64,000 nucleotides of DNA from Patescibacteria group bacterium (lineage in GTDB: Bacteria > Patescibacteriota > Saccharimonadia > UBA4664 > SCTI01): NCBI GenBank assembly GCA_004297735.1, contig SCTI01000001.1, positions 190,435 to 254,434 of the forward strand, written 5' to 3'. Under the pieces are notes generated by a model. It worked only from the letters and a program-made list of their open reading frames with translations. It was not told the origin of the DNA and made no database searches. Below are positions 45,417 to 56,040 of this stretch, piece after piece; within the stretch, counting starts at the first letter, position 1; each line of letters starts with the position of its first letter. A program made the position numbers and the translations under genes.

Positions 45417-46490
45417 ATGGCTCAACTTGATCCCGCCATCATTCCTAGCGGACATGAAGCCTACACTCGAATGCTTAGCGACATCACCGCGGCTAAGCGC
45501 GAGGTTGTCTACGCCAACTTTTGCTTCTTGCCCGGCAAATCATTTAACCGGCTAGCTGATGCTTTAACCACGGCGGCTAAGCGAGGAGTCGAGGTGTACA
45601 TTGTTGCTGACTGGTATGGCTCATCGGCACTAGGAGAGAAGCGGGTGGCCAAGTTGAGAGCCGCCGGAGTTCAGTGGACCTGGTTTAGGCCAAAGCGCTG
45701 GCGCACCATTGCTAGCTACAACCGACGAATGCATAAAAAGCTGCTTATTGTTGACCGGCGGGTGGCCTACACCGGCGGGGTGGGGTGGGCCGATTTTTGG
45801 GAAAGACCAACCGTCGAATACCCAGCCGCCTGGCGCGACACCCACTTTCGCATCACCGATAGCGGCACAATTACCGCCATGTACAACAGCGCCATAGACA
45901 GCTGGAACAAGTTTAGCGGCCACAAACTGACTCCACTTAAAACCGCCCTAACCGGCGCCAAGATACTAAACAGCGTGCCCCCACGGCTTCACCGTTTGTC
46001 GCCGGCAGGTCGCCAGTTTGCAGACTCGCTCGACCTGGCTCGCACCGCAGTTAAAATTACTACCGCTTACTTTGGGCCAAGCCGCTCACTGCGCCAAGCC
46101 CTCATTCGCACCGCCAAGCGTGGCGTTAAGGTTGAGCTACTTTTAAACGGTCCTCATGCCTCGCACGAGATAGCCGCTCAGGCTGGGCGGGCCTACTACG
46201 ACCAGCTTCTAAAAGCCGGCGTTCAAATTTACGAATATCAGCCCACCAAACTGCACGCCAAGCTTATGACGATTGACGGTCGCCAAGCAATCATTGGTTC
46301 GGCTAACTGGAACTTTCGATCGCTGCACCACGATCAAGAGTGCAATTTAACGGTAGCCAGCGCCGACTTTTGCCGCCAACTTGATCGCCAGTTCGAAGCC
46401 GACAAGCGCCAATCAGCCCGAATCACCGAGGTTGATCCAAGCCAAATATGGAAACAGCGATTAAGCTCACTGGGGCGCTACTTCTTCTAG
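45417..46490 (+). CDS. Phospholipase D-family protein (cardiolipin-synthase-like, two HKD motifs)
   Basis: 357 aa. HKD motifs RRMHKKLLIVDRRVAYTGG and LHAKLMTIDGRQAIIGSANWN. Confidence 0.75.
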   Translation: MAQLDPAIIPSGHEAYTRMLSDITAAKREVVYANFCFLPGKSFNRLADALTTAAKRGVEVYIVADWYGSSALGEKRVAKLRAAGVQWTWFRPKRWRTIASYNRRMHKKLLIVDRRVAYTGGVGWADFWERPTVEYPAAWRDTHFRITDSGTITAMYNSAIDSWNKFSGHKLTPLKTALTGAKILNSVPPRLHRLSPAGRQFADSLDLARTAVKITTAYFGPSRSLRQALIRTAKRGVKVELLLNGPHASHEIAAQAGRAYYDQLLKAGVQIYEYQPTKLHAKLMTIDGRQAIIGSANWNFRSLHHDQECNLTVASADFCRQLDRQFEADKRQSARITEVDPSQIWKQRLSSLGRYFF

Positions 46491-46555: not shown

Positions 46556-47128
46556 ATGCATATAAAAATCCCCAAACATCACCGAACCAAAAAAGCCAAA
46601 ATCGCCTTTTTAAAGCGCTCGGCGGCGGCTAAAAGCCACCATCACCGCAAGCGCCACAAAAAGCTCGCTTTGCAGCACGCCTTTGTGCTGGGTCTGCTTG
46701 GCCTGGTGACCCTAGCCACCACCGGCGTGGTAGCGGCCATGGCCGACAACTTGATCCCGCCCCCCAGCAAGCCAATCGACATGACTCCATATATCGAGGC
46801 CGCCAAAGCCGAACGCGAGGCTCAAAAGGCTCGCAATGCCGCAGTTATTGAGTCGGCACCCGACCAATCCGGTATCGCGTCTTGGTACGCGCTTGGCTTG
46901 CGCGCTCCCGATGCCCTAACCTGCGCTAGCACCAAGTTCCCACGTGGGACTTACCTTAAGGTCAAAAATCTCCGCAATGGAGCCCAGGTAACCTGCTTGG
47001 TCAACGACTACGGCCCACAGCCCGGTACCAAGCGAGTGATCGACCTGTCGCGAGGCAGCTTTACCAAGATTGGCAGCCTTGGTAGCGGTACGCTCCCGGT
47101 AGAGATTCGAGTTGTCCCAGGGCCGTAA
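46556..47128 (+). CDS. RlpA-like double-psi beta-barrel protein
   Basis: 190 aa. Basic N-terminus plus TM. DPBB block IASWYALGLRAPDALTCASTKFPRGTYLKVKNLRNGAQVTCLVNDYGP. Confidence 0.7.
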   Translation: MHIKIPKHHRTKKAKIAFLKRSAAAKSHHHRKRHKKLALQHAFVLGLLGLVTLATTGVVAAMADNLIPPPSKPIDMTPYIEAAKAEREAQKARNAAVIESAPDQSGIASWYALGLRAPDALTCASTKFPRGTYLKVKNLRNGAQVTCLVNDYGPQPGTKRVIDLSRGSFTKIGSLGSGTLPVEIRVVPGP

Positions 47129-48589: not shown

Positions 48590-48628
48590 ACGCCCCGCTA
48601 GCTACATGCCGGCGGGGCGCTTTTATTC
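48590..48628. terminator. Bidirectional hairpin terminator, copy 1 of an identical 39-nt repeat
   Basis: ACGCCCCGCTAGCTACATGCCGGCGGGGCGCTTTTATTC: 8-bp GC stem CGCCCCGC/GCGGGGCG, then TTTTATT. An identical copy lies at 50766-50804. Confidence 0.65.
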
Positions 48629-48636
48629 GATCGTAT

Positions 48637-49206
48637 TCAGCTACTGATGACGTCTCCGTCCCCATCGAGGCCCATCTCGACGAGGATTTTGTCCAGGTCG
48701 CCCTCGATCAGCACCGACTCGCGATAGTACGCAAGGAGCTCGGCGCCGCACCGCTCGACCTCTTCCTTGAGAATGACGCCAATCGCCTGCGGGAGGTAGT
48801 CGTTCTTGGGATCCTTGAACAGCCGGAGCAGCTGATCTCGCTCGAGGGCGCCGATTTCGTGCTGCGGCTCGTCCTCCGTTCCGTGATCGAGCCAGGCCAG
48901 CCAGCGGGCCGGGTACTTTGAGGAATCGAGAACCAACAGGATCGAGCCTCTGGCGCTTTCCCCTGGCTGAAGCAACGGTACCCAGGATTGGGCACCACAG
49001 AGCGGAACCACCATCAAGTCTTGAAACCTCGGCTCCTTGATGAACGGCTCGCTGCACGAACCATCGGATTCATCGGTGTATGCCTTCAGCGGTTGCCCGC
49101 CGTGCTCCTTCAAAAATGGGAGCGCTCTCTCTACGACTCGCTCGAGAGCGATCAGATGGAGCTCGGCCTGCTGGTGGGTGTAAGGATCGGTCATGGTAAG
49201 CCTCAC
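48637..49206 (-). CDS. Hypothetical protein co-oriented immediately downstream of the RT gene (candidate retron accessory/effector)
   Basis: 189 aa, about 62% GC, acidic C-terminus (DGDGDVISS). No recognised domain. 100-nt gap to the RT stop. Lies between the RT and the repeat-1 terminator. Confidence 0.45.
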   Translation of the reverse strand: MRLTMTDPYTHQQAELHLIALERVVERALPFLKEHGGQPLKAYTDESDGSCSEPFIKEPRFQDLMVVPLCGAQSWVPLLQPGESARGSILLVLDSSKYPARWLAWLDHGTEDEPQHEIGALERDQLLRLFKDPKNDYLPQAIGVILKEEVERCGAELLAYYRESVLIEGDLDKILVEMGLDGDGDVISS

Positions 49207-49277: not shown

Positions 49278-49310
49278 CCGGTTTTGGTCAGATCCGGAAA
49301 CTGATACTAC
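49278..49310. repeat. 33-nt element CCGGTTTTGGTCAGATCCGG(A/T)AACTGATA(C/G)T, copy 1 of 3
   Basis: Also at 52104-52136 and 53467-53499. Each copy sits 0-6 nt 3' of the stop codon of a minus-strand island gene. Confidence 0.7.
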
Positions 49311-50296
49311 CCTCGGAAGAGGCGCTGTAGCCACTCCTCCATGGGGCTGAGCGGAACTTTGGGCCGAGTAATCGGCTTGACGTAGGTGTACTTCCGCCAA
49401 ACCAGCGCCGCCTGACGATCAAACGGAAAGCCGCCAAGGGCTAGGTGCTCACGCAGAGCGCCCATACGGCCCTCTACCACGCCGGGTTCAATTGCCTTGC
49501 CCACGCGATTACTCTTGCCGTTAACCAAGCAATACATGCTGCCCTCTAGGCCCTGCAGCCACTTGCGCGGCAGGTAGATGGCAAAGGCACGATTGATGTC
49601 ATCGCTAGCTTCACCGGCGCTTGGACCGGCACCCAACCTTAGACCGGTGATCATGACCGGGCGACGAGCCACGTCGTAGTAGCCAGTCTTCTTGTAGTTG
49701 AGTCGGAAGCCACTGCGCTTAATGACAGCTCGAATTGCCTCGCGCTTACGACGACCAATCGGCTCCCAGCTCGAAAACACCAGATCGTCGATATAGCGCG
49801 TATAGGTCAGGCTCCAGCGCTCGGCTAGCTCAATCAACGCCTCGTCAAGCTTACGAGCCGCAACCTGGTTGAACAGATCGGTGGCTGCCGGCGTACCGGT
49901 CATTAGCCCTCGGCCACGAGGAGTGGCCAGGTAGCGACGAACGAAATCCTCCATGCCTACCTGATCTACCCAAAGCTCTGACTTTACTTCAGCCAGAACC
50001 GGATACAGCCACTCGGGGCGAACCGACGGGTAGGCGTTGTACAGATCCAACTTGTAAACGTAGTGGTTACCCCAATGCTGCATAGCGCAACGAACGGCTG
50101 AGCCACCACGTACACCACCAAAGTTATGTGATGGGATGCCAAGCTGTAAGCGTGTTTCGCGGATAACCTGGGCATGCACCTCGCGCATGGCTGCATTGGG
50201 CACAAACACCTCGCGCCGTTTACCGCCATTGCGACCGTTGATGAATCGGCGCTCCGTTGCAGGAGGCGCCGTAATGCTACGGGTCTCCTTAGACAT
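49307..50296 (-). CDS. Reverse transcriptase, retron-type (small stand-alone RT)
   Basis: 329 aa. RT motifs: SHNFGGVRGGSAVRCAMQH (retron-like HxF..GRS...NA..H block), motif A YKLDLYNAYPSV, motif C YIDDLVF (encoded 49784-49795), and PVMITGLRLG corresponding to the retron VTG motif. No maturase/En domains. RBS GGAGG 7 nt upstream. Confidence 0.75.
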   Translation of the reverse strand: MSKETRSITAPPATERRFINGRNGGKRREVFVPNAAMREVHAQVIRETRLQLGIPSHNFGGVRGGSAVRCAMQHWGNHYVYKLDLYNAYPSVRPEWLYPVLAEVKSELWVDQVGMEDFVRRYLATPRGRGLMTGTPAATDLFNQVAARKLDEALIELAERWSLTYTRYIDDLVFSSWEPIGRRKREAIRAVIKRSGFRLNYKKTGYYDVARRPVMITGLRLGAGPSAGEASDDINRAFAIYLPRKWLQGLEGSMYCLVNGKSNRVGKAIEPGVVEGRMGALREHLALGGFPFDRQAALVWRKYTYVKPITRPKVPLSPMEEWLQRLFRG

Positions 50297-50765
50297 TGCG
50301 CCTCCAATTGTAAAAGTATTATCGTGACGACCCGGCGGGGTCTGGAGAAAGACGACAACATGGGTTTACCGGGCCGTGCGCCCTCGCTGCGGCGCGCCCG
50401 AGTGGCGGTCACCGGCCTGCGGAGCAGACCAGCTGCTCTTCTGCCACGAGCGCTCACGCGCCGCGGATGAAGAACCGGCCACCTCATCGTGCCGCAGCCT
50501 GCGCTGGAGCTCCCGCGTACGAGAGCCTATAGACCACCTACACGCTACGGAATGGCTACCGCGTTGGCGGAGTGGCTACCGCTCGTTTGCGTCAGTTGGC
50601 CCAACCTCGTCGTTTGAACGACCAGGCACTGGTGTTAGGACGGTTGTCGACCTTACATCTCCAGACCCCACCTATAGGGTGTCACTACTTACCGAACACC
50701 TATCGGTAGCGTCATGATAGCAGGCCTGTGCATATGGAGGCAATATTAGTTACCTTAAAACTTCA
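50297..50765 (-). ncRNA. Candidate retron msr/msd non-coding RNA region (GC-rich 5' leader of the RT gene)
   Basis: 469 nt with no plausible ORF (all frames Arg-rich nonsense). About 64% GC. Multiple local palindromes (GGAGCTCC, GAGCAGctggtCTGCTC, CACCCTATAGGTGG). Confidence 0.3.
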
Positions 50766-50804
50766 ACGCCCCGCTAGCTACATGCCGGCGGGGCGCTTTT
50801 ATTC
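50766..50804. terminator. Bidirectional hairpin terminator, copy 2 of the identical 39-nt repeat
   Basis: Identical to 48590-48628. Separates gene 50799..51476 from the RT unit. Confidence 0.65.
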
Positions 50805-51476
50805 AACTGAGCCCCACATGTGGAGCTTGACCGAATTCTGAGGACGCTTCAAGATCTGCTCACGCCAAACGAAGTCAGGGTGGAGCTGGCCTTTCTGCCT
50901 AAGAACCAGACAGACCGTATCTACCAGCTCGTTCCAGCGGATGTTGTAGTTCTCGAGGTAGGGGAGAAGCCGCGCGATCGTCACCCGCGGCGGCGCCTCT
51001 AGCGTGCGCTTGTAAAAGCGGCAAATTTCGTACTCGTCGCTGCCGGCTTTAAGCGCGTGCTCCAGTGTGATCTGAAGTCGCTGGTTACGGCGGCACACAT
51101 CAAGGAGCTGCTCCAGACTGAGCGGGAAGTATGCCATTTCGGCCAAGGCATACTCGCACCAATCGCGCACAAACTGGCGACGGGCCACCCCAAAAGCAGT
51201 GACCTGCGTTTTGGCCTCATCTAGGTGCTCGCTAATCTGCGCTAGATTGAGCTGCACCAGGCCGGGCTTAGAGCCCAGCTTGCGGTAGAAGAGATGGCTG
51301 TCGGGCCGGCTACTAAAGTAGCGGGCGGCGGCGTTAAACGCACCTTTAGCCAGCTTAGTCCGGCCGTTTGCGACGTTAAACCTTACCGCGTCATCCATGG
51401 TGGCCCAAAGCTCCACGCTACTACTAGTGCCGCCAAGCGTCGAGAAGCTGGTAAAGCCAGAAGGAGTGCTGTGCAT
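50799..51476 (-). CDS. Hypothetical protein (island gene)
   Basis: 225-aa ORF, about 60% GC, no recognised domain. Confidence 0.4.
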   Translation of the reverse strand: MHSTPSGFTSFSTLGGTSSSVELWATMDDAVRFNVANGRTKLAKGAFNAAARYFSSRPDSHLFYRKLGSKPGLVQLNLAQISEHLDEAKTQVTAFGVARRQFVRDWCEYALAEMAYFPLSLEQLLDVCRRNQRLQITLEHALKAGSDEYEICRFYKRTLEAPPRVTIARLLPYLENYNIRWNELVDTVCLVLRQKGQLHPDFVWREQILKRPQNSVKLHMWGSVE

Positions 51477-52138: not shown

Positions 52139-53386
52139 TTAGGCCCTAAGTGCCCCCGTGGCGCGATAGGCCTCGAGCCACCTCTCGTTATAGAACCAGT
52201 CAGGCACATATGCACTCTCGATTTCGCCCTCGCTAGAGAGCACCTGGTGGGCCCAGACGCACCGACCCTCGCTGCCGCGAACGCGACTTCCAAAGCCGCT
52301 GTTTACCCGTAGACCTGCCTTTTCGGCAACCACTTCGGGATACCGATAGGGACCGTCAAAGCCGCCGCTGACACTCAGGTAGAGGTCGTCCAGTTCGCAC
52401 ACAGCCAGGACCAATCGCTGGATCTCAGCAATCCCCTCAAGACTCAAGCAACGAGTCCGCGAGGCATGAACCGTGATCGAGGAGCCAGCGGCGTAAAACG
52501 GATGGTTGACGTTTGTCCAGCCCCTCAGAGACTGGTCGTCTTCATCGTCCCGCAACGACCCTTCTGGCGGCAGAACCGCCTGAACAGCCATACCGCGAAT
52601 CAGAGCGGAGGTGTGCCCATTGATCAGCCCAACTGAGATCTTATCTCGGCTCATGACCGGGTGATACCCGGGCACGATACTGAGATCAAGGCCACCACCT
52701 GGCTTAAACAGGCCGTGCCACAGCCTGAATGACCGCTCTGAGTCACCGATCTCAAAGGTGACCAGCTGCAACCAGTCGTAACTCCATCGCCCACTAAGCG
52801 AGTGGGTGATGCCGATCTCTTGGATCTTGGGATGGTCAAGTGCTACAAGTAGTGCCGCTTCAAGGCTATTGACCGCAGCGAACACCACTTCGATTTGAAG
52901 CTGTTCCAGGGCCTCAGCCAGCATTCCAACCGACATGCAGTTGAAGACCGGATTCGGAACGTATGTATTGAGTGTTCGCAGCGACAGCCAGTGCGAAGAG
53001 CGACCAATCCGAGACCGGTGTAGCGGGCCACATGTGTGGTAACGGCTCACCCAGTAGCGCTGGGTATGACTAGCGATCCGGCGCAACGCCCACAGGTGCT
53101 GCTGTCCGGTTGTGCCCGGAAGCATTATCACTGCGCTTACCTGGTAGAGGTGGTCGAGGAGCACCCGTGCAACAGGTGCGCCATCGCGATAAAGCTTGAC
53201 CTCAAGCGAGCGACAAAAGTAGCGCCACTCCAGATCATCCTCGGCGTACTCGAAAGCAAGCTGAGGGTTCTTCACTCCCATATAGGGCAGCGATGGGTTA
53301 CGACCGCGGCTGCGTTGCCACATGCCGTGCAGCAGGACGTACTCGGCGGAACCTGGTTCGTGTCCTTTCAAGATACTCTTTTTCAC
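52139..53386 (-). CDS. Hypothetical protein (island gene), C-terminal half weakly resembles the PNP/MTA-nucleosidase phosphorylase fold
   Basis: 415 aa. Segment VFAAVNSLEAALLVALDHPKIQEIGITHSLSG loosely resembles the glycine-rich nucleoside-phosphorylase family-1 core. The assignment is tentative. Confidence 0.4.
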   Translation of the reverse strand: MKKSILKGHEPGSAEYVLLHGMWQRSRGRNPSLPYMGVKNPQLAFEYAEDDLEWRYFCRSLEVKLYRDGAPVARVLLDHLYQVSAVIMLPGTTGQQHLWALRRIASHTQRYWVSRYHTCGPLHRSRIGRSSHWLSLRTLNTYVPNPVFNCMSVGMLAEALEQLQIEVVFAAVNSLEAALLVALDHPKIQEIGITHSLSGRWSYDWLQLVTFEIGDSERSFRLWHGLFKPGGGLDLSIVPGYHPVMSRDKISVGLINGHTSALIRGMAVQAVLPPEGSLRDDEDDQSLRGWTNVNHPFYAAGSSITVHASRTRCLSLEGIAEIQRLVLAVCELDDLYLSVSGGFDGPYRYPEVVAEKAGLRVNSGFGSRVRGSEGRCVWAHQVLSSEGEIESAYVPDWFYNERWLEAYRATGALRA

Positions 53387-54025: not shown

Positions 54026-54100
54026 TGGTAGTCCCACGGGGACTCGAACCCCGGTTACTGGAATGAGAATCCAGCGTCCTAACCACTAGACGATGGGACC
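54026..54100 (-). tRNA. tRNA-Glu (anticodon CUC)
   Basis: Reverse complement GGTCCCA-TC-GTC TAGTGGTTAG GAC-G-CTGGA TTCTCAT TCCAG-TAAC-CGGGG TTCGAGT CCCCG-TGGGACT-A-CCA. Anticodon CUC. Confidence 0.8.
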
Positions 54101-54231: not shown

Positions 54232-56040
54232 TTGGATTTATTAACGCGGCGTTATAGCATTCTGGCTTCGCTCCTGGCCTATCTGGGCGGAGTGGTGGCT
54301 AGTGTCACGCTGCTTATATTCGTGCTGGCGCCCGATAAGACGCCCCAAAACATAACCCTGGCGGTGATGCTAGGAGGTAGCGGGGCGATCCTGCTGGCTT
54401 ACTACTTGAGCCTACACCAACTACTCAAAAAGAATCACCTACAGCTATCAACCGGCATCATGGCGGTGCTGGCGGCGATTAGCGAGTTTATTTTAATTAA
54501 TGCAACCGGCGGCCCGGATTCTCCTTATTACTCGCTGTGGATTTTAGCGATCGTGATTGCTGGGCTGTTTGGTCAGGTTGCCACCATCACCGTGGTGTTC
54601 ATGACGCTACTGTACTTTGTGTACGTTTTTTGGACGCACGATTTTAACCAGACCTACATCGCTACGCACTTAGGGATCGTGCTGATGACCATCGGCACCG
54701 GCGCGATCGCTGAGTGGATTCATTTGTTTTTGGGGCGGGGAATGGTACGAGCCAGCCAGGTTGAAAAACTAGCCGGCCAGCTGGGCGAAGAGGAGCTCAA
54801 GTCGGAAGCGATTATGCGTAGCGTGGGTGATGGTATTTTGGTGATTGATACCAAGCGCCGGATTCAGCTGTTCAACCCAGCCGCCACCCGCTTAACCGGC
54901 TGGGATGCCGGTAGCGCTCATGGCATTGATTACCGACTGGTGCTCAACCTGCGGGATGCCGAAGGTAAAAAACTCAGCGACGACACCGACCCATTTACGC
55001 AGGTATGGCGGGAGGGCAAGAGTAAGGTGCGCGATGACTTAACGCTTGAGACCAAGAATGGGCGCAAACTGTCGGCATCGCTGTCGCTGTCACCACTCAC
55101 CGACAACAAAAAACAGATCCGTGGTGGTATTTTGCTGTTTCGCGACATTAGTGCCGAAAAAGAGGTTGAGCGCCAACGCAATGAGTTTATTAGCACCGCT
55201 TCGCACGAAATGCGCACTCCAGTAGCGGCGATTGAAGGCTACTTGGCGCTGGCGATGAATGCCAACGTGGCCACGATTGACGATCGAGCAAAGCAGTATC
55301 TAGATAAGGCCCACCATGCCACTCAGCATTTGGGTGCTTTGTTTAAGGACTTACTGTCGATTACCACCATCGATGACGAGCAACACACCCCGAGCGAGGT
55401 GTTTGATCTTGGCGCGACCATTAAAGAGGTGGTTGACGATATGAAGATCCAGGCCGAAAAGAAAGGCCTTGAAGTTCAGCTGGAGACCAGCGACGTACGC
55501 GTTCGCGGCGAACACGCGGTGGTGCCGGTGTATGCGGTTAAGGCGGCCCCAAGTCGTATTCTCGAAGTTGTATCCAACCTGGTAGAAAACGCGATCAAGT
55601 ACACTCAGACCGGCACCATCCGGGTGACCATTGGCGGCACCAGCGAAGCCGTCACCGTTAGCGTTATTGATACCGGTATGGGTATTGCGGCTGAGGACAT
55701 TCCGCACCTGTTCCAAAAGTTTTACCGAGTCGACAACAGTGCCACCCGCACCATTGGCGGTACCGGGCTGGGGCTCTACCTGTGCCGCAGTATTATTGAA
55801 CATTCCGGCGGTCGAATTTGGGTAGAGAGCAAGCCGGGCGAGGGGAGCGCCTTTAAGTTCACCCTGCCACGATTGGCTAGTGATAAGATTACTAAGGCGG
55901 CCGCTAGTGTAGCGGTTTCACCTGGTACGACCACGGCGACGGCCATGCCAGCAGCTCCACCCTATTCTGTAGCGACCAAACCAAGCTCTAAGAGCGGTAA
56001 GGTGATGACCGACATCCACAAACCGGCGGTGGCAACATGA
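54232..56040 (+). CDS. Sensor histidine kinase (polytopic N-terminus, PAS, HisKA, HATPase_c)
   Basis: H-box STASHEMRTPVAAIEGY. N, G1 (VIDTGMGI) and G2 (GGTGLGL) boxes. PAS-like region ILVIDTKRRIQLFNPAA. The annotated start codon is TTG; a downstream ATG is possible. Confidence 0.8.
   Translation: MDLLTRRYSILASLLAYLGGVVASVTLLIFVLAPDKTPQNITLAVMLGGSGAILLAYYLSLHQLLKKNHLQLSTGIMAVLAAISEFILINATGGPDSPYYSLWILAIVIAGLFGQVATITVVFMTLLYFVYVFWTHDFNQTYIATHLGIVLMTIGTGAIAEWIHLFLGRGMVRASQVEKLAGQLGEEELKSEAIMRSVGDGILVIDTKRRIQLFNPAATRLTGWDAGSAHGIDYRLVLNLRDAEGKKLSDDTDPFTQVWREGKSKVRDDLTLETKNGRKLSASLSLSPLTDNKKQIRGGILLFRDISAEKEVERQRNEFISTASHEMRTPVAAIEGYLALAMNANVATIDDRAKQYLDKAHHATQHLGALFKDLLSITTIDDEQHTPSEVFDLGATIKEVVDDMKIQAEKKGLEVQLETSDVRVRGEHAVVPVYAVKAAPSRILEVVSNLVENAIKYTQTGTIRVTIGGTSEAVTVSVIDTGMGIAAEDIPHLFQKFYRVDNSATRTIGGTGLGLYLCRSIIEHSGGRIWVESKPGEGSAFKFTLPRLASDKITKAAASVAVSPGTTTATAMPAAPPYSVATKPSSKSGKVMTDIHKPAVAT

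What the first reader, a model, noticed from the sequence alone, without database searches (positions are those of the whole stretch)
50297..50765. 469-nt GC-rich non-coding region upstream of the RT: candidate msr/msd RNA
Every reading frame here gives Arg-rich low-complexity translations typical of non-coding high-GC DNA. The region still contains many local dyads on the RT strand: GGAGCTCC, GAGCAG-ctggt-CTGCTC, CACCCTATAGGTGG and ACCGA-taggtgt-TCGGT. The RT ATG follows directly, with a GGAGG RBS. Retron ncRNAs sit exactly here and are highly structured. By eye I could not find the long a1/a2 inverted repeat, so the exact RNA boundaries are open.
Basis: partly seen in the sequence, partly recalled or inferred. 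Interest (0 to 1): 0.65.

Follow-up and report, generated by a model that had tools for sequence, protein, structure and literature searches.

The report
Retron-like RNA beside a reverse transcriptase
The GC-rich gap upstream of this Patescibacteria reverse transcriptase encodes a conserved, highly folded RNA of about 385 nt with the layout of a retron msr/msd template, but in a rare, unclassified lineage with an unusually long RNA and no conserved partner toxin gene.

Summary
Window 50297-50798 (minus strand) is non-coding, GC-rich, and folds far better than shuffled sequence (z = -6.8).

Its arms are 50672-50643 and 50359-50334, and they enclose 283 nt.

The RNA is conserved upstream of the RT gene in five other distinct loci, where the RTs are 39-52% identical. 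In a hand-curated six-sequence alignment, 14 of 22 a1/a2 pairs keep pairing through changes on both sides.

Inside the helix lie three shorter hairpins and one long, variable, GC-rich hairpin. An invariant G sits 2 nt after a1. This matches the published retron layout.

The RNA has its own conserved extended -10 promoter.

By HMM, PDB sequence search and Foldseek, the RT is closest to retron RTs. It carries xAxxH (CAMQH) and ITG in place of NAxxH and VTG. No type-specific model claims it.

No neighbouring gene is conserved across the loci, and no Rfam family matches the RNA. The immediate RT family is tiny: 4 clusters at E<1e-50 among 1.84 billion representatives.

Verdict: this is a retron-type ncRNA+RT module, a new variant of a known kind. 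msDNA synthesis and the 2'-5' branch are inferred, not shown.

The parts
50714..50743 (-). Promoter-like site: TTGCCT, 18-nt spacer, TGc-TATCAT (extended -10). The predicted transcription start is near 50707.
   Evidence: The consensus scan finds it. The TGCTAT[CT]ATGA block is conserved in the homologous loci. The start site itself is inferred from spacing.
50322..50707 (-). Predicted structured ncRNA of about 385 nt, the candidate msr-msd transcript. It may continue into the RT mRNA.
   Evidence: z = -6.75. nhmmer finds homologous sequence upstream of the RT in L001/L002, L003, L005/L006, L086 and L088/L089. The MFE architecture is shared. No Rfam match.
50643..50672 (-). a1, the 5' arm of the long terminal helix: P1b GGUGGGGUCUGGAGA at 50672-50658 and P1c CGACAAC at 50649-50643, with bulges between them.
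   Evidence: In the curated alignment, 96% of cells are paired and 14 of 22 pairs change on both sides across 6 sequences; slid controls give 35-47% paired.
50334..50359 (-). a2, the 3' arm of the long terminal helix: GUUGUCG at 50359-50353 and UCUCCAGACCCCGCC at 50348-50334.
50677..50685 (-). P1a 5' strand (GUGAC-A-CCC). It extends the terminal helix outward and pairs with 50333-50324.
   Evidence: Cofolds of all homologues show an outer extension. It is less regular than P1b and P1c, and it competes with the U/D pairing.
50324..50333 (-). P1a 3' strand (GGG-UC-GUCAC).
50641..50641 (-). Invariant G, 2 nt after the inner end of a1. It is the candidate branching (priming) guanosine.
   Evidence: The context is [C/A]-G-[U/A] in win, L001, L003, L005, L086 and L088. 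Its role is inferred by analogy with retrons (PMC7736814, PMC8632793).
50605..50626 (-). SL1: a 9-bp hairpin, CCUGGUCGU-UCAA-ACGACGAGG, with a conserved UCAA/UCAU loop. Candidate msr stem-loop.
   Evidence: 89% of cells are paired and 2 pairs are compensatory across 5 sequences. RNAalifold predicts it.
50531..50602 (-). SL2: a hairpin of variable length, closed by GGGCCA/UGGUCU.
   Evidence: RNAalifold consensus with compensatory inner pairs. It is formed locally in L003, L005 and L086. In the window's own MFE, the GGGCC pairs instead with GGCCC near 50375, so the closure here is less certain.
50508..50527 (-). SL3: an 8-bp hairpin, GGCUCUCG-UACG-CGGGAGCU.
   Evidence: 100% of cells are paired and 4 of 8 pairs change on both sides in win, L003, L005 and L086. 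There is no clear equivalent in L001.
50378..50504 (-). SL4: a long GC-rich hairpin of 127 nt with a forked tip. Its sequence and length vary between homologues. Candidate msd (the reverse-transcribed part).
   Evidence: It cannot be aligned between homologues, as expected for msd. The msd assignment is inferred.
50368..50373 (-). 'U' motif CCCGGU, in the single-stranded stretch 9-14 nt upstream of a2. It is complementary to 'D'.
   Evidence: Sequence conservation. For the U/D pairing, 88% of cells are paired and 2 pairs are compensatory.
50331..50336 (-). 'D' motif GCCGGG. It overlaps the last 3 nt of a2 and the start of P1a, so it has two mutually exclusive partners: U, or the 5' CCC..GGU.
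   Evidence: Analogous pairs (UCAGCGG/CCGCUGA) flank a2 in remote relatives.
49307..50296 (-). Reverse transcriptase, 329 aa, with a YIDD catalytic motif. Region X reads CAMQH (H74 invariant). Region Y reads ITG (T217 and G218 invariant).
   Evidence: Pfam RVT_1. The PADLOC hits listed are all retron RT models, at 44-84 bits. NCBIfam retron_St85_RT scores 87 bits, below its cutoff of 235. The PDB phmmer search returns retron RTs, plus weak hits to group II maturase RT domains deposited as 'retron-type'. The top 14 Foldseek hits are retron RTs.
48637..49206 (-). ORF189 (NCBI aa): an orphan gene inside the repeat-bracketed cassette. It is only a possible local cargo or effector.
   Evidence: Its only database match is itself. 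It has no Pfam, PADLOC, PHROG or NCBIfam hit. It is absent from the other loci. The AF2 model has pLDDT 47 and is unusable.
50766..50804 (.). Copy 2 of a perfect 39-nt direct repeat. The repeat is a bidirectional terminator hairpin, ACGCCCCGCTAGCTACATGCCGGCGGGGCGCTTTTATTC.
48590..48628 (.). Copy 1 of the same 39-nt repeat. Together the two copies bracket ORF189 + RT + ncRNA, a cassette of about 2.2 kb.

Best explanation
The region encodes the non-coding RNA partner of the adjacent reverse transcriptase, in a retron-type module.

Proposed mechanism:
1. A dedicated extended -10 promoter (50743-50714) drives an RNA that starts near 50707.
2. The two ends of the RNA (a1 50672-50643, a2 50359-50334, extended outward by P1a) form a helix of about 26-35 bp. 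This helix closes a multi-branched interior: three shorter hairpins (SL1-SL3, the msr-like part) and one long, variable, GC-rich hairpin (SL4, the msd-like part).
3. By analogy with retrons, the RT binds this RNA. It uses the 2'-OH of the invariant G at 50641, which the helix places next to the template end just upstream of a2. It then copies the linker, the U motif and SL4 into a single-stranded DNA of roughly 130-250 nt that stays attached to the RNA.

Shown here: the non-coding nature of the region, the conserved structure with covariation, the conserved promoter, the retron affinity of the RT, and the co-inheritance of RNA and RT.

Inferred: reverse transcription of the RNA, the branch point, the msr/msd boundary, and any defence function.
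For: Structure:
- z = -6.75, and -4.9 and -7.1 in homologues.
- a1/a2: 96% of cells paired, 14 of 22 pairs compensatory, slid controls 35-47% paired. The four-sequence version gives 100% paired and 11 of 22.
- SL3: 4 of 8 pairs compensatory.
- SL1 and SL2 are supported.

Co-occurrence: the RNA is found upstream of every close RT homologue for which upstream DNA exists. In remote relatives (29-38% identical), a long inverted repeat again ends 16-40 nt before the RT start.

RT affinity:
- The PADLOC hits listed are all retron RT models.
- NCBIfam gives retron_St85_RT 87 bits, against Drt2 16, Drt3a 21 and group II 15.
- The strongest PDB sequence hits, nine sequences at E 1e-7 to 2e-5, are retron RTs. 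These alignments place CAMQH on NAKIH/NAAAH and ITG on VTG.
- The top 14 Foldseek hits are retron RTs.

The layout matches the published definition: a1/a2, 1-3 short msr hairpins, a long msd hairpin and a branching G (PMC7736814).

The validated Ec86 retron, fetched as a control, has the same order: a1, G, msr, msd, a2, then the RT start.
Against: - No msDNA, transcript ends or branch can be observed with these tools.
- The RT scores about equally (44-84 bits among the 25 listed) against all retron type models and below NCBIfam cut-offs, so it belongs to no defined type.
- The N of NAxxH is not conserved (C, C, H or S).
- No effector gene or domain is conserved beside the module.
- The RNA is about twice the usual retron ncRNA length. 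This comparison rests on my own knowledge and the Ec86 control (about 170 nt).
- A second conserved pairing (U/D) competes with the outer end of the terminal helix. I do not know this as a described retron feature.
- The covariation counts come from hand-curated excerpts of 4-6 sequences whose helices were read from those same sequences. That inflates the percentage paired.
Confidence: 0.7

Rival explanations
1. The RNA is a dedicated partner or template of the RT, but it works by a non-retron mechanism. There would be no 2'-5' branch. Instead, 3'-OH or protein priming, template jumping or homopolymer synthesis would operate, as in the two-component DRT2 or DRT9 systems, where the cDNA product itself is the effector.
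For: - The module has two components, and no effector is conserved across any locus.
- The RNA is long and multi-branched.
- An extra conserved U/D pairing flanks a2.
- Foldseek still detects DRT9 and DRT2 RTs at E about 1e-7.
Against: - RT sequence and fold are clearly nearer to retron RTs than to DRT2, DRT3 or DRT9.
- The Drt2 HMM scores 16 bits against a cutoff of 390.
- No stop-free frame is shared by the homologues' template regions on either strand, so a Neo-like concatemer gene is unlikely.
- The a1/a2 helix with an adjacent invariant G is the retron priming geometry.
Confidence: 0.18
2. The structure is only a cis-regulatory 5' leader of the RT mRNA, controlling its stability or translation, and is never reverse transcribed.
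For: It lies directly upstream of the RT start. The D motif has two alternative partners, which resembles a switch.
Against: - A 385-nt leader with a terminal helix of about 26-35 bp, four internal hairpins and a hypervariable central hairpin is not typical of leaders.
- The RBS (50305-50301) lies outside the structure.
- The same architecture recurs across an RT clade whose nearest relatives use such RNAs as templates.
- No riboswitch or leader family matches.
Confidence: 0.07
3. The region is the template repeat of a diversity-generating retroelement, or a degenerate group II intron. DGRs make up most RTs in CPR bacteria.
For: [quoted passage not shown]
Against: - There is no second, diverged copy (VR) of any part of the region anywhere in the 64-kb window. 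The only repeat found is the 39-nt terminator.
- The RT lacks a DGR-like motif (TGTPAATDLFN, read from the alignment, against the GxxxSQ signature as I recall it) and matches retron models.
- No group II intron RNA hit in Rfam.
- The group II RT/maturase HMM scores 15 bits against a cutoff of 300.
Confidence: 0.02

Closest known systems
Bacterial retrons (msr-msd ncRNA + RT), e.g. retron Ec86/Eco1 (type II-A)
   Same: - The gene order is promoter, ncRNA, RT on one strand.
- The terminal a1/a2 repeats hybridise.
- A G lies next to the inner end of the helix.
- Short hairpins are followed by a long variable hairpin.
- a2 ends a few tens of nt before the RT start.
- The RT has YxDD, xAxxH and [V/I]TG motifs.
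- The best sequence and fold matches are retron RTs.
   Different: - The RNA is about 385 nt, against about 170 nt for Ec86, with a helix of about 26-35 bp against 12 bp.
- The invariant G lies 2 nt from the helix rather than adjacent to it.
- The N of NAxxH is replaced.
- No type-specific HMM claims the RT.
- No effector gene is conserved, whereas Ec86 has its effector immediately upstream.
- An extra U/D pairing flanks a2.
- The host is a Patescibacteria MAG.
Myxobacterial retrons Mx162/Mx65 (long msDNA; type III-A as I recall it from Mestre et al.)
   Same: They have a long a1/a2 and a long msd (own knowledge). RT_III-A is the single best PADLOC model for the window RT, at 84 bits.
   Different: The score is far below what a family member would give, and it is barely above that of other types. 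The accessory genes of that type are absent here.
DRT2 (UG2) and DRT9 two-component RT + ncRNA defence systems
   Same: There are only two components, a structured ncRNA directly upstream of a small RT, and no separate effector gene.
   Different: The RT is not of the UG/Abi lineage (Drt2 16 bits; Foldseek E about 1e-7 against about 1e-11 for retrons). There is no conserved stop-free template frame. The terminal-helix-plus-G geometry is retron-like.
[quoted passage not shown]
   Same: These are divergent retron RT lineages recognised by region X/Y motifs, with de novo predicted msr/msd-like RNAs upstream.
   Different: Those lineages carry recurrent stand-alone accessory proteins and occur in Bacillota and Bacteroidota. 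Patescibacteria are not mentioned in that survey. Here no accessory gene recurs.

Membership tests
Retron | RT belongs to the retron/retron-like RT lineage | tested here: met
   The PADLOC hits listed are all retron RT models. Retron_St85_RT is the best NCBIfam model. The PDB phmmer search returns retron RTs (E 1e-7 to 2e-5), with only weak hits (E about 0.006-0.008) to group II maturase RT domains labelled 'retron-type' and to Ec67. The top 14 Foldseek hits are retron RTs.
Retron | Assignment to one of the 13 described retron types | tested here: not met
   Among the 25 PADLOC models listed, scores are 44-84 bits with none dominant (RT_III-A 84, RT_VI 83). The NCBIfam hit is far below its cutoff (87 against 235). 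The same pattern holds for 10 relatives.
Retron | Region X NAxxH motif between RT2 and RT3 (H the most conserved residue; PMC7736814) | tested here: inconclusive
   CAMQH aligns with NAKIH of Ec83 and NAAAH of Ec78. H74 is invariant and A71 nearly so. The N is replaced by C, C, H or S.
Retron | Region Y VTG triplet in RT7 (G the most conserved residue) | tested here: met
   PVMITGLRL aligns with HVTGITI of Ec78. T217 and G218 are invariant in the family, and G218 is invariant in the 12-sequence alignment.
Retron | Contiguous ncRNA gene on the same strand next to the RT | tested here: met
   A homologous structured RNA lies directly upstream of the RT in all six distinct loci that have upstream DNA.
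Retron | Complementary a1/a2 ends that hybridise and enclose msr and msd | tested here: met
   96% of cells are paired and 14 of 22 pairs are compensatory.
Retron | msr with 1-3 short stem-loops, followed by msd as a long variable hairpin | tested here: met
   SL1-SL3 followed by the long SL4 appear in win, L003, L005 and L086. L001 lacks a clear SL3. Which part is msr and which is msd is inferred.
Retron | Conserved branching G at the inner end of a1 | tested here: inconclusive
   G50641 is invariant in six sequences and lies 2 nt after the helix. A conserved G at that place is necessary but does not prove branching.
Retron | Production of msDNA linked to the RNA by a 2'-5' bond | not testable with these tools
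   This needs expression, gel and debranching assays, or RT-DNA sequencing.
Retron | Associated effector gene or fused effector domain (tripartite system) | tested here: not met
   The neighbours differ in every locus: HisRS, ABC ATPase, Band_7, DUF998, glycosyltransferase, MS channel. tblastn of the window's neighbours finds nothing in the other loci. The RT has no extra domain (329 aa). ORF189 is an orphan.
Retron | Match to a curated RNA family in Rfam | tested here: not met
   There are no hits at gathering score, and only chance-level hits at E up to 10.
Diversity-generating retroelement | Template repeat with an adenine-mismatched variable repeat in a nearby target gene | tested here: not met
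   A sensitive blastn of the region against the 64-kb window finds no diverged copy.
DRT2 (UG2) | Drt2-type RT, and an ncRNA template that yields a stop-free concatemer ORF | tested here: not met
   Drt2 HMM scores 16 bits against a cutoff of 390. No frame is free of stops in all four homologues.
Group II intron | Ribozyme domains (Rfam Intron_gpII) and an RT-maturase | tested here: not met
   No Rfam hit. group_II_RT_mat scores 15 bits against a cutoff of 300.

The most novel reading that the evidence does not exclude
This is a previously undescribed, effector-less, two-component retron lineage, resident in the tiny genomes of Patescibacteria/Saccharimonadales.

It has an unusually long msr-msd RNA. 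It also has an extra conserved helix (U/D) that competes with the outer end of a1/a2, acting as a conformational switch or pseudoknot that gates priming.

Its biological output would be the RT-DNA itself, or a partner encoded elsewhere, rather than a neighbouring toxin.
Probability: 0.3. Interest if true: 0.7.

Novelty: new variant of a known kind. Interest (0 to 1): 0.5.

Why it matters
Retrons are understood as tripartite toxin-antitoxin defence systems, and they are prized as in vivo DNA writers.

A lineage with a conserved RNA and RT but no partner gene asks what a retron does without an effector. That it sits at syntenic positions in related genomes of ultra-small episymbiotic bacteria sharpens the question.

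The long, well-defined template hairpin could also be a useful scaffold for producing longer RT-DNA.

My full-text searches found no paper describing a retron in Patescibacteria. DGRs are reported to dominate the RTs of that group (PMC8632793).

The curated helices and coordinates given here make the system directly testable by expression in E. coli.

Tried and rejected
- Phage origin of the window: megablast against phage records found nothing. The contig is a Patescibacteria MAG.
- Rfam: no family matches at gathering score or at E up to 10.
- DGR: no TR/VR copy in the window.
- Hidden coding capacity or a Neo-like concatemer ORF: no shared open frame, and no Pfam hit for the mechanical ORFs.
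- Effector search: neighbours were compared across loci by Pfam, PADLOC, PHROGs, NCBIfam and tblastn, and by clustering of about 60 relatives' neighbours. Nothing is conserved, except two small ORFs (about 72 and 96 aa) in a distant six-locus subgroup.
- ORF189: its only homologue is itself. The AF2 model has pLDDT 47, so no fold search was run.
- Sequence-profile search (nhmmer) for the RNA in 80 remote loci found nothing below E about 10. Only the structural analogy is visible there.
- Flanking direct repeats like the window's 39-mer were sought in the other loci and not found.
I treat the GGAGUUCGGUA block as a conserved sequence motif, not as a proven helix.
- The CCGCUGA motif after a2 also occurs in Ec86, but it has no upstream partner there. 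The U/D pairing is therefore not a general retron feature.
- A full-length covariance model was not built. The RNA is near or over the limit of 400 alignment columns, and models of that size exceed the calibration time limit.
Full report
**What is at the coordinates**

On the minus strand, a 329-aa ORF (50296..49307) carries an RVT_1 domain. A GGAGG precedes it at 50305-50301. The next ORF upstream ends at 50799 and is followed by a GC-rich terminator hairpin, so 50297-50798 is intergenic.

GC rises to 0.62-0.65 inside the gap, against about 0.55-0.57 around it.

The mechanical ORFs that cross the gap have no Pfam hit. No frame stays open in all homologues. The protein is identical to a hypothetical protein of a 'Patescibacteria group bacterium' MAG on a 273-kb contig. 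The window has no near match among phage records.

**Is the structure more than chance?**

The 386-nt stretch 50707-50322 folds at -199.6 kcal/mol, against -161.6 +/- 5.6 for dinucleotide shuffles. That is z = -6.75, and none of 100 shuffles folds as well. The 511-nt gap as a whole gives z = -6.9.

The repeat finder reports 50334-50348 against 50658-50672 (15 nt, 93% complementary) and 50348-50359 against 50643-50654. Together these form a helix of about 26 bp, with two small bulges, that encloses 283 nt. An outer extension (50685-50677 with 50333-50324) lengthens it to about 35 bp.

**Conservation**

Protein searches found few close relatives: P0002 and P0003 (51-52% identity), P0014 and P0015 (43%), and P0016 and P0017 (38-39% by BLASTP; 41% by phmmer).

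An exhaustive HMMER scan of 1.84 billion cluster representatives found:

| E-value threshold | Proteins |
|---|---|
| below 1e-50 | 4 |
| up to 1e-30 | 23 |
| up to 1e-10 | 585 |

Wherever upstream DNA is available, nhmmer finds a homologue of the window's non-coding region directly upstream of the RT. This holds for L001/L002, L003, L005/L006 (a Saccharimonadales MAG), L086 and L088/L089. The match is weak for L088/L089.

The alignment shows three zones:
- A conserved 5' block. It holds a TGCTAT[CT]ATGA element, a GGAGTTCGGTA motif, a1, and a hairpin with a UCAA/UCAU loop.
- A conserved 3' block: CCCGGYA, a2, CCGGG.
- A centre that cannot be aligned and differs in length (interiors of 283, 264, 207 and 208 nt).

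The consensus scan reads the TGCTATCAT element as an extended -10 with a TTGCCT -35 at 18-nt spacing. The RNA therefore most likely starts near 50707.

**Covariation**

I excerpted the helices into gap-free mini-alignments so that they stay in register. In L086 and L088, one bulged U of a2 was removed by hand.

| Helix | Sequences | Cells paired | Pairs changed on both sides | Slid controls (paired) |
|---|---|---|---|---|
| P1b+P1c (terminal helix) | 4 | 100% | 11 of 22 | 36-47% |
| P1b+P1c (terminal helix) | 6 | 96% | 14 of 22 | 35-47% |
| SL1 | 5 | 89% | 2 | (same run as P1) |
| SL3 | 4 | 100% | 4 of 8 | 11-69% |

(The slid-control figures for P1 come from runs that also included the nine SL1 pairs.)

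RNAalifold on the a1-to-SL3 segment recovers SL1 and SL2, with compensatory inner pairs.

Independent MFE folds of the window, L001, L003, L005/L006, L086 and L088 all give the same plan: a long closing helix, then a single-stranded stretch with an invariant G, then SL1, SL2, (SL3), a long GC-rich SL4, a single-stranded CCCGGYA stretch, and a2.

Two caveats apply. The helices were read from these same sequences, which inflates the percentage paired. And six related sequences cannot give a proper significance test. Even so, the number of double-sided changes in the terminal helix is large.

**The RT**

- The PADLOC hits listed are all retron RT models (RT_III-A 84 bits, RT_VI 83, and 23 others down to 44), with none standing out.
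- NCBIfam ranks retron_St85_RT first (87 bits, cutoff 235). Drt3a (21), Drt2 (16) and group II RT-maturase (15) follow far behind.
- The strongest hits of the phmmer search against PDB sequences (E 1e-7 to 2e-5) are all retron RTs. The only others are weak (E about 0.006-0.008): group II intron maturase RT domains deposited as 'retron-type', and Ec67. The printed alignments place the window's CAMQH on NAKIH (Ec83) and NAAAH (Ec78), and PVMITG on HVTG (Ec78).
- Mestre et al. (PMC7736814) define retron RTs by these two motifs, with H and G the most conserved residues. H74, T217 and G218 are invariant in the family, but the N is not conserved.
- An AF2 model (pLDDT 77) matches retron RTs in its top 14 Foldseek hits (E 6e-12 to 9e-10). 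Group II RTs follow from about 1e-9, interleaved with further retron RTs, and DRT9/DRT2/AbiP2 at about 1e-7.
- Ten relatives give the same undifferentiated PADLOC profile.

The RT is therefore retron-like but outside the typed groups.

**The wider clade**

Eighty metagenomic relatives at 27-43% identity show no sequence similarity in their upstream regions. Many still carry a long inverted repeat whose 3' arm ends 16-40 nt before the RT start. These include L020, L010, L008, L007, L030, L054, L012, L014/15, L031 and L009. The RNA-plus-RT design is thus a property of the clade.

The validated Ec86 retron was fetched as a control. It shows the same order on a smaller scale: a 12-bp a1/a2, the G adjacent to the helix, and a2 ending 8 nt before the RT ATG. 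Its effector gene lies immediately upstream.

**What is missing: an effector**

The neighbours of the six family loci are unrelated housekeeping-type genes, often on the opposite strand. They include HisRS, an ABC ATPase, a Band_7 protein, DUF998, a glycosyltransferase, a mechanosensitive channel and a rotamase. The window's own neighbours have no counterpart in the other loci. Clustering of the neighbours of about 60 relatives finds nothing recurrent, apart from two small ORFs in a distant six-locus subgroup.

Within sub-lineages the module sits at syntenic sites. DUF998 is 83% identical between L006 and L086, and the rotamase is 67-69% identical between L087 and L088. This suggests vertical retention.

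In the window itself, a perfect 39-nt direct repeat brackets exactly ORF189 + RT + ncRNA. The repeat is a bidirectional terminator hairpin at 48590-48628 and 50766-50804. This looks like a 2.2-kb cassette inserted between two convergent genes with duplication of their shared terminator. ORF189 is an orphan, and its AF2 model is unusable. It could be a local effector, but nothing supports that beyond its position.

**An unexplained extra: the U/D pairing**

The six nt upstream of a2 (U, CCCGGU, 50373-50368) are complementary to the six nt that overlap and follow the end of a2 (D, GCCGGG, 50336-50331).

Across the six family members the pair covaries:

| Locus | U / D |
|---|---|
| win | CCCGGU / GCCGGG |
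| L001 | CCCGGU / ACCGGG |
| L003 | CCCGGC / GCCGGG |
| L005 | CCCGGC / GUCGGG |
| L086 | UCCGGC / GCCGGG |
| L088 | CCUGGG / CCCAGG |

In this set, 88% of cells are paired and 2 pairs are compensatory.

Remote relatives carry a different but equally complementary pair in the same position. Examples are UCAGCGG/CCGCUGA, UCAGCAA/UUGCUGA and UCGGCG/CGCCGA. There, 91% of cells are paired and 3 pairs are compensatory.

D's other possible partner is the 5' CCC..GGU that extends a1. The two pairings exclude each other. The RNA may therefore switch conformations, or form a pseudoknot in which U/D stacks on a1/a2. Ec86 has CCGCUGA after a2 but no upstream partner. These helices are short and hand-picked, so this is a lead, not a result.

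**Rivals**

- A DGR template is excluded for this window, because no diverged copy exists in 64 kb. DGRs do dominate CPR RTs (PMC8632793).
- Group II intron and DRT2 membership fail their tests.
- A DRT-like, branch-free mechanism remains possible, because the system has two components.
- A pure leader function is unlikely given the architecture.

**Literature**

Full-text searches for retron together with Patescibacteria, candidate phyla radiation or Saccharibacteria returned no paper describing such an element. A 2026 survey of retrons in metagenomes does not mention Patescibacteria.

**Verdict**

The gap encodes a conserved, retron-type msr/msd-like RNA whose boundaries and helices can now be given to the nucleotide.

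It is a new variant of a known kind: an untyped retron-like RT, a long RNA, no conserved effector, a CPR host, and a possible extra switch helix. msDNA synthesis, the branch point and the function remain to be shown experimentally.

Noticed in passing
window 48590-48628 and 50766-50804: A perfect 39-nt direct repeat (a bidirectional terminator hairpin) brackets exactly ORF189 + RT + ncRNA. This suggests a 2.2-kb cassette inserted between two convergent genes, with duplication of their shared terminator. No such flanking repeats exist in the homologous loci.
   Followed up: partly
window 48637-49206 (-): ORF189 is an orphan. Its only match among 5.8 billion sequences is itself, and it hits no family. 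A promoter-like TTGACA-18-TACCAT site at 49222-49193 overlaps its annotated start. Its AF2 model has pLDDT 47.
   Followed up: partly
window 50373-50368 with 50336-50331; also L001, L003, L005, L086, L088: A conserved 6-bp complementarity flanks a2 (the U/D pair). It covaries and competes with the outer end of the a1/a2 helix, so it may be a conformational switch or a pseudoknot.
   Followed up: partly
L007, L008, L009, L010, L012, L014, L020, L030, L046 (upstream of their RT genes); L090 1781-1790: Remote relatives carry a conserved CUCAGCGG motif before a2 and CCGCUGA just after it, with compensatory variants. The same AUCCGCUGAA occurs 10 nt after a2 in retron Ec86, inside the RT start codon region, but has no upstream partner there.
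   Followed up: partly
window 50700-50688 and homologues: The motif GG[A/U]GUUCGGUA, just after the predicted transcription start, is conserved in sequence in all six family members. No consistent pairing partner is evident. It may be a protein-binding or tertiary-contact site.
   Followed up: no
L086 2753-3697 (-): A second retron-like RT gene (314 aa, 38% identical to the window RT) lies convergent to, and 65 nt away from, the family RT in this contig. That makes two RT modules side by side.
   Followed up: partly
L058, L061, L067, L069, L074, L078 (upstream of RT): A distant subgroup of relatives has two conserved small ORFs (about 72 and 96 aa) directly upstream of the RT. These are the only recurrent neighbours seen in the whole set.
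   Followed up: no
L005/L006 and L086; L087 and L088/L089: The RT module sits at syntenic sites within sub-lineages: next to DUF998 (83% identical) in one, and near a SurA-like rotamase (67-69% identical) in the other. Meanwhile the RTs have diverged to roughly 40% identity with the window RT. This is consistent with long vertical retention.
   Followed up: partly
window 45417-46490 (+), 46556-47128 (+), 54029-54100 (-), 54232-56040 (+): Nearby genes are a PLD-like (HKD) protein, a DPBB/lytic-transglycosylase-like protein, a tRNA gene and a PAS histidine kinase. ORFs 50799-51476 (-) and 52139-53386 (-), which lie between the RT and the tRNA, have no family hits.
   Followed up: no
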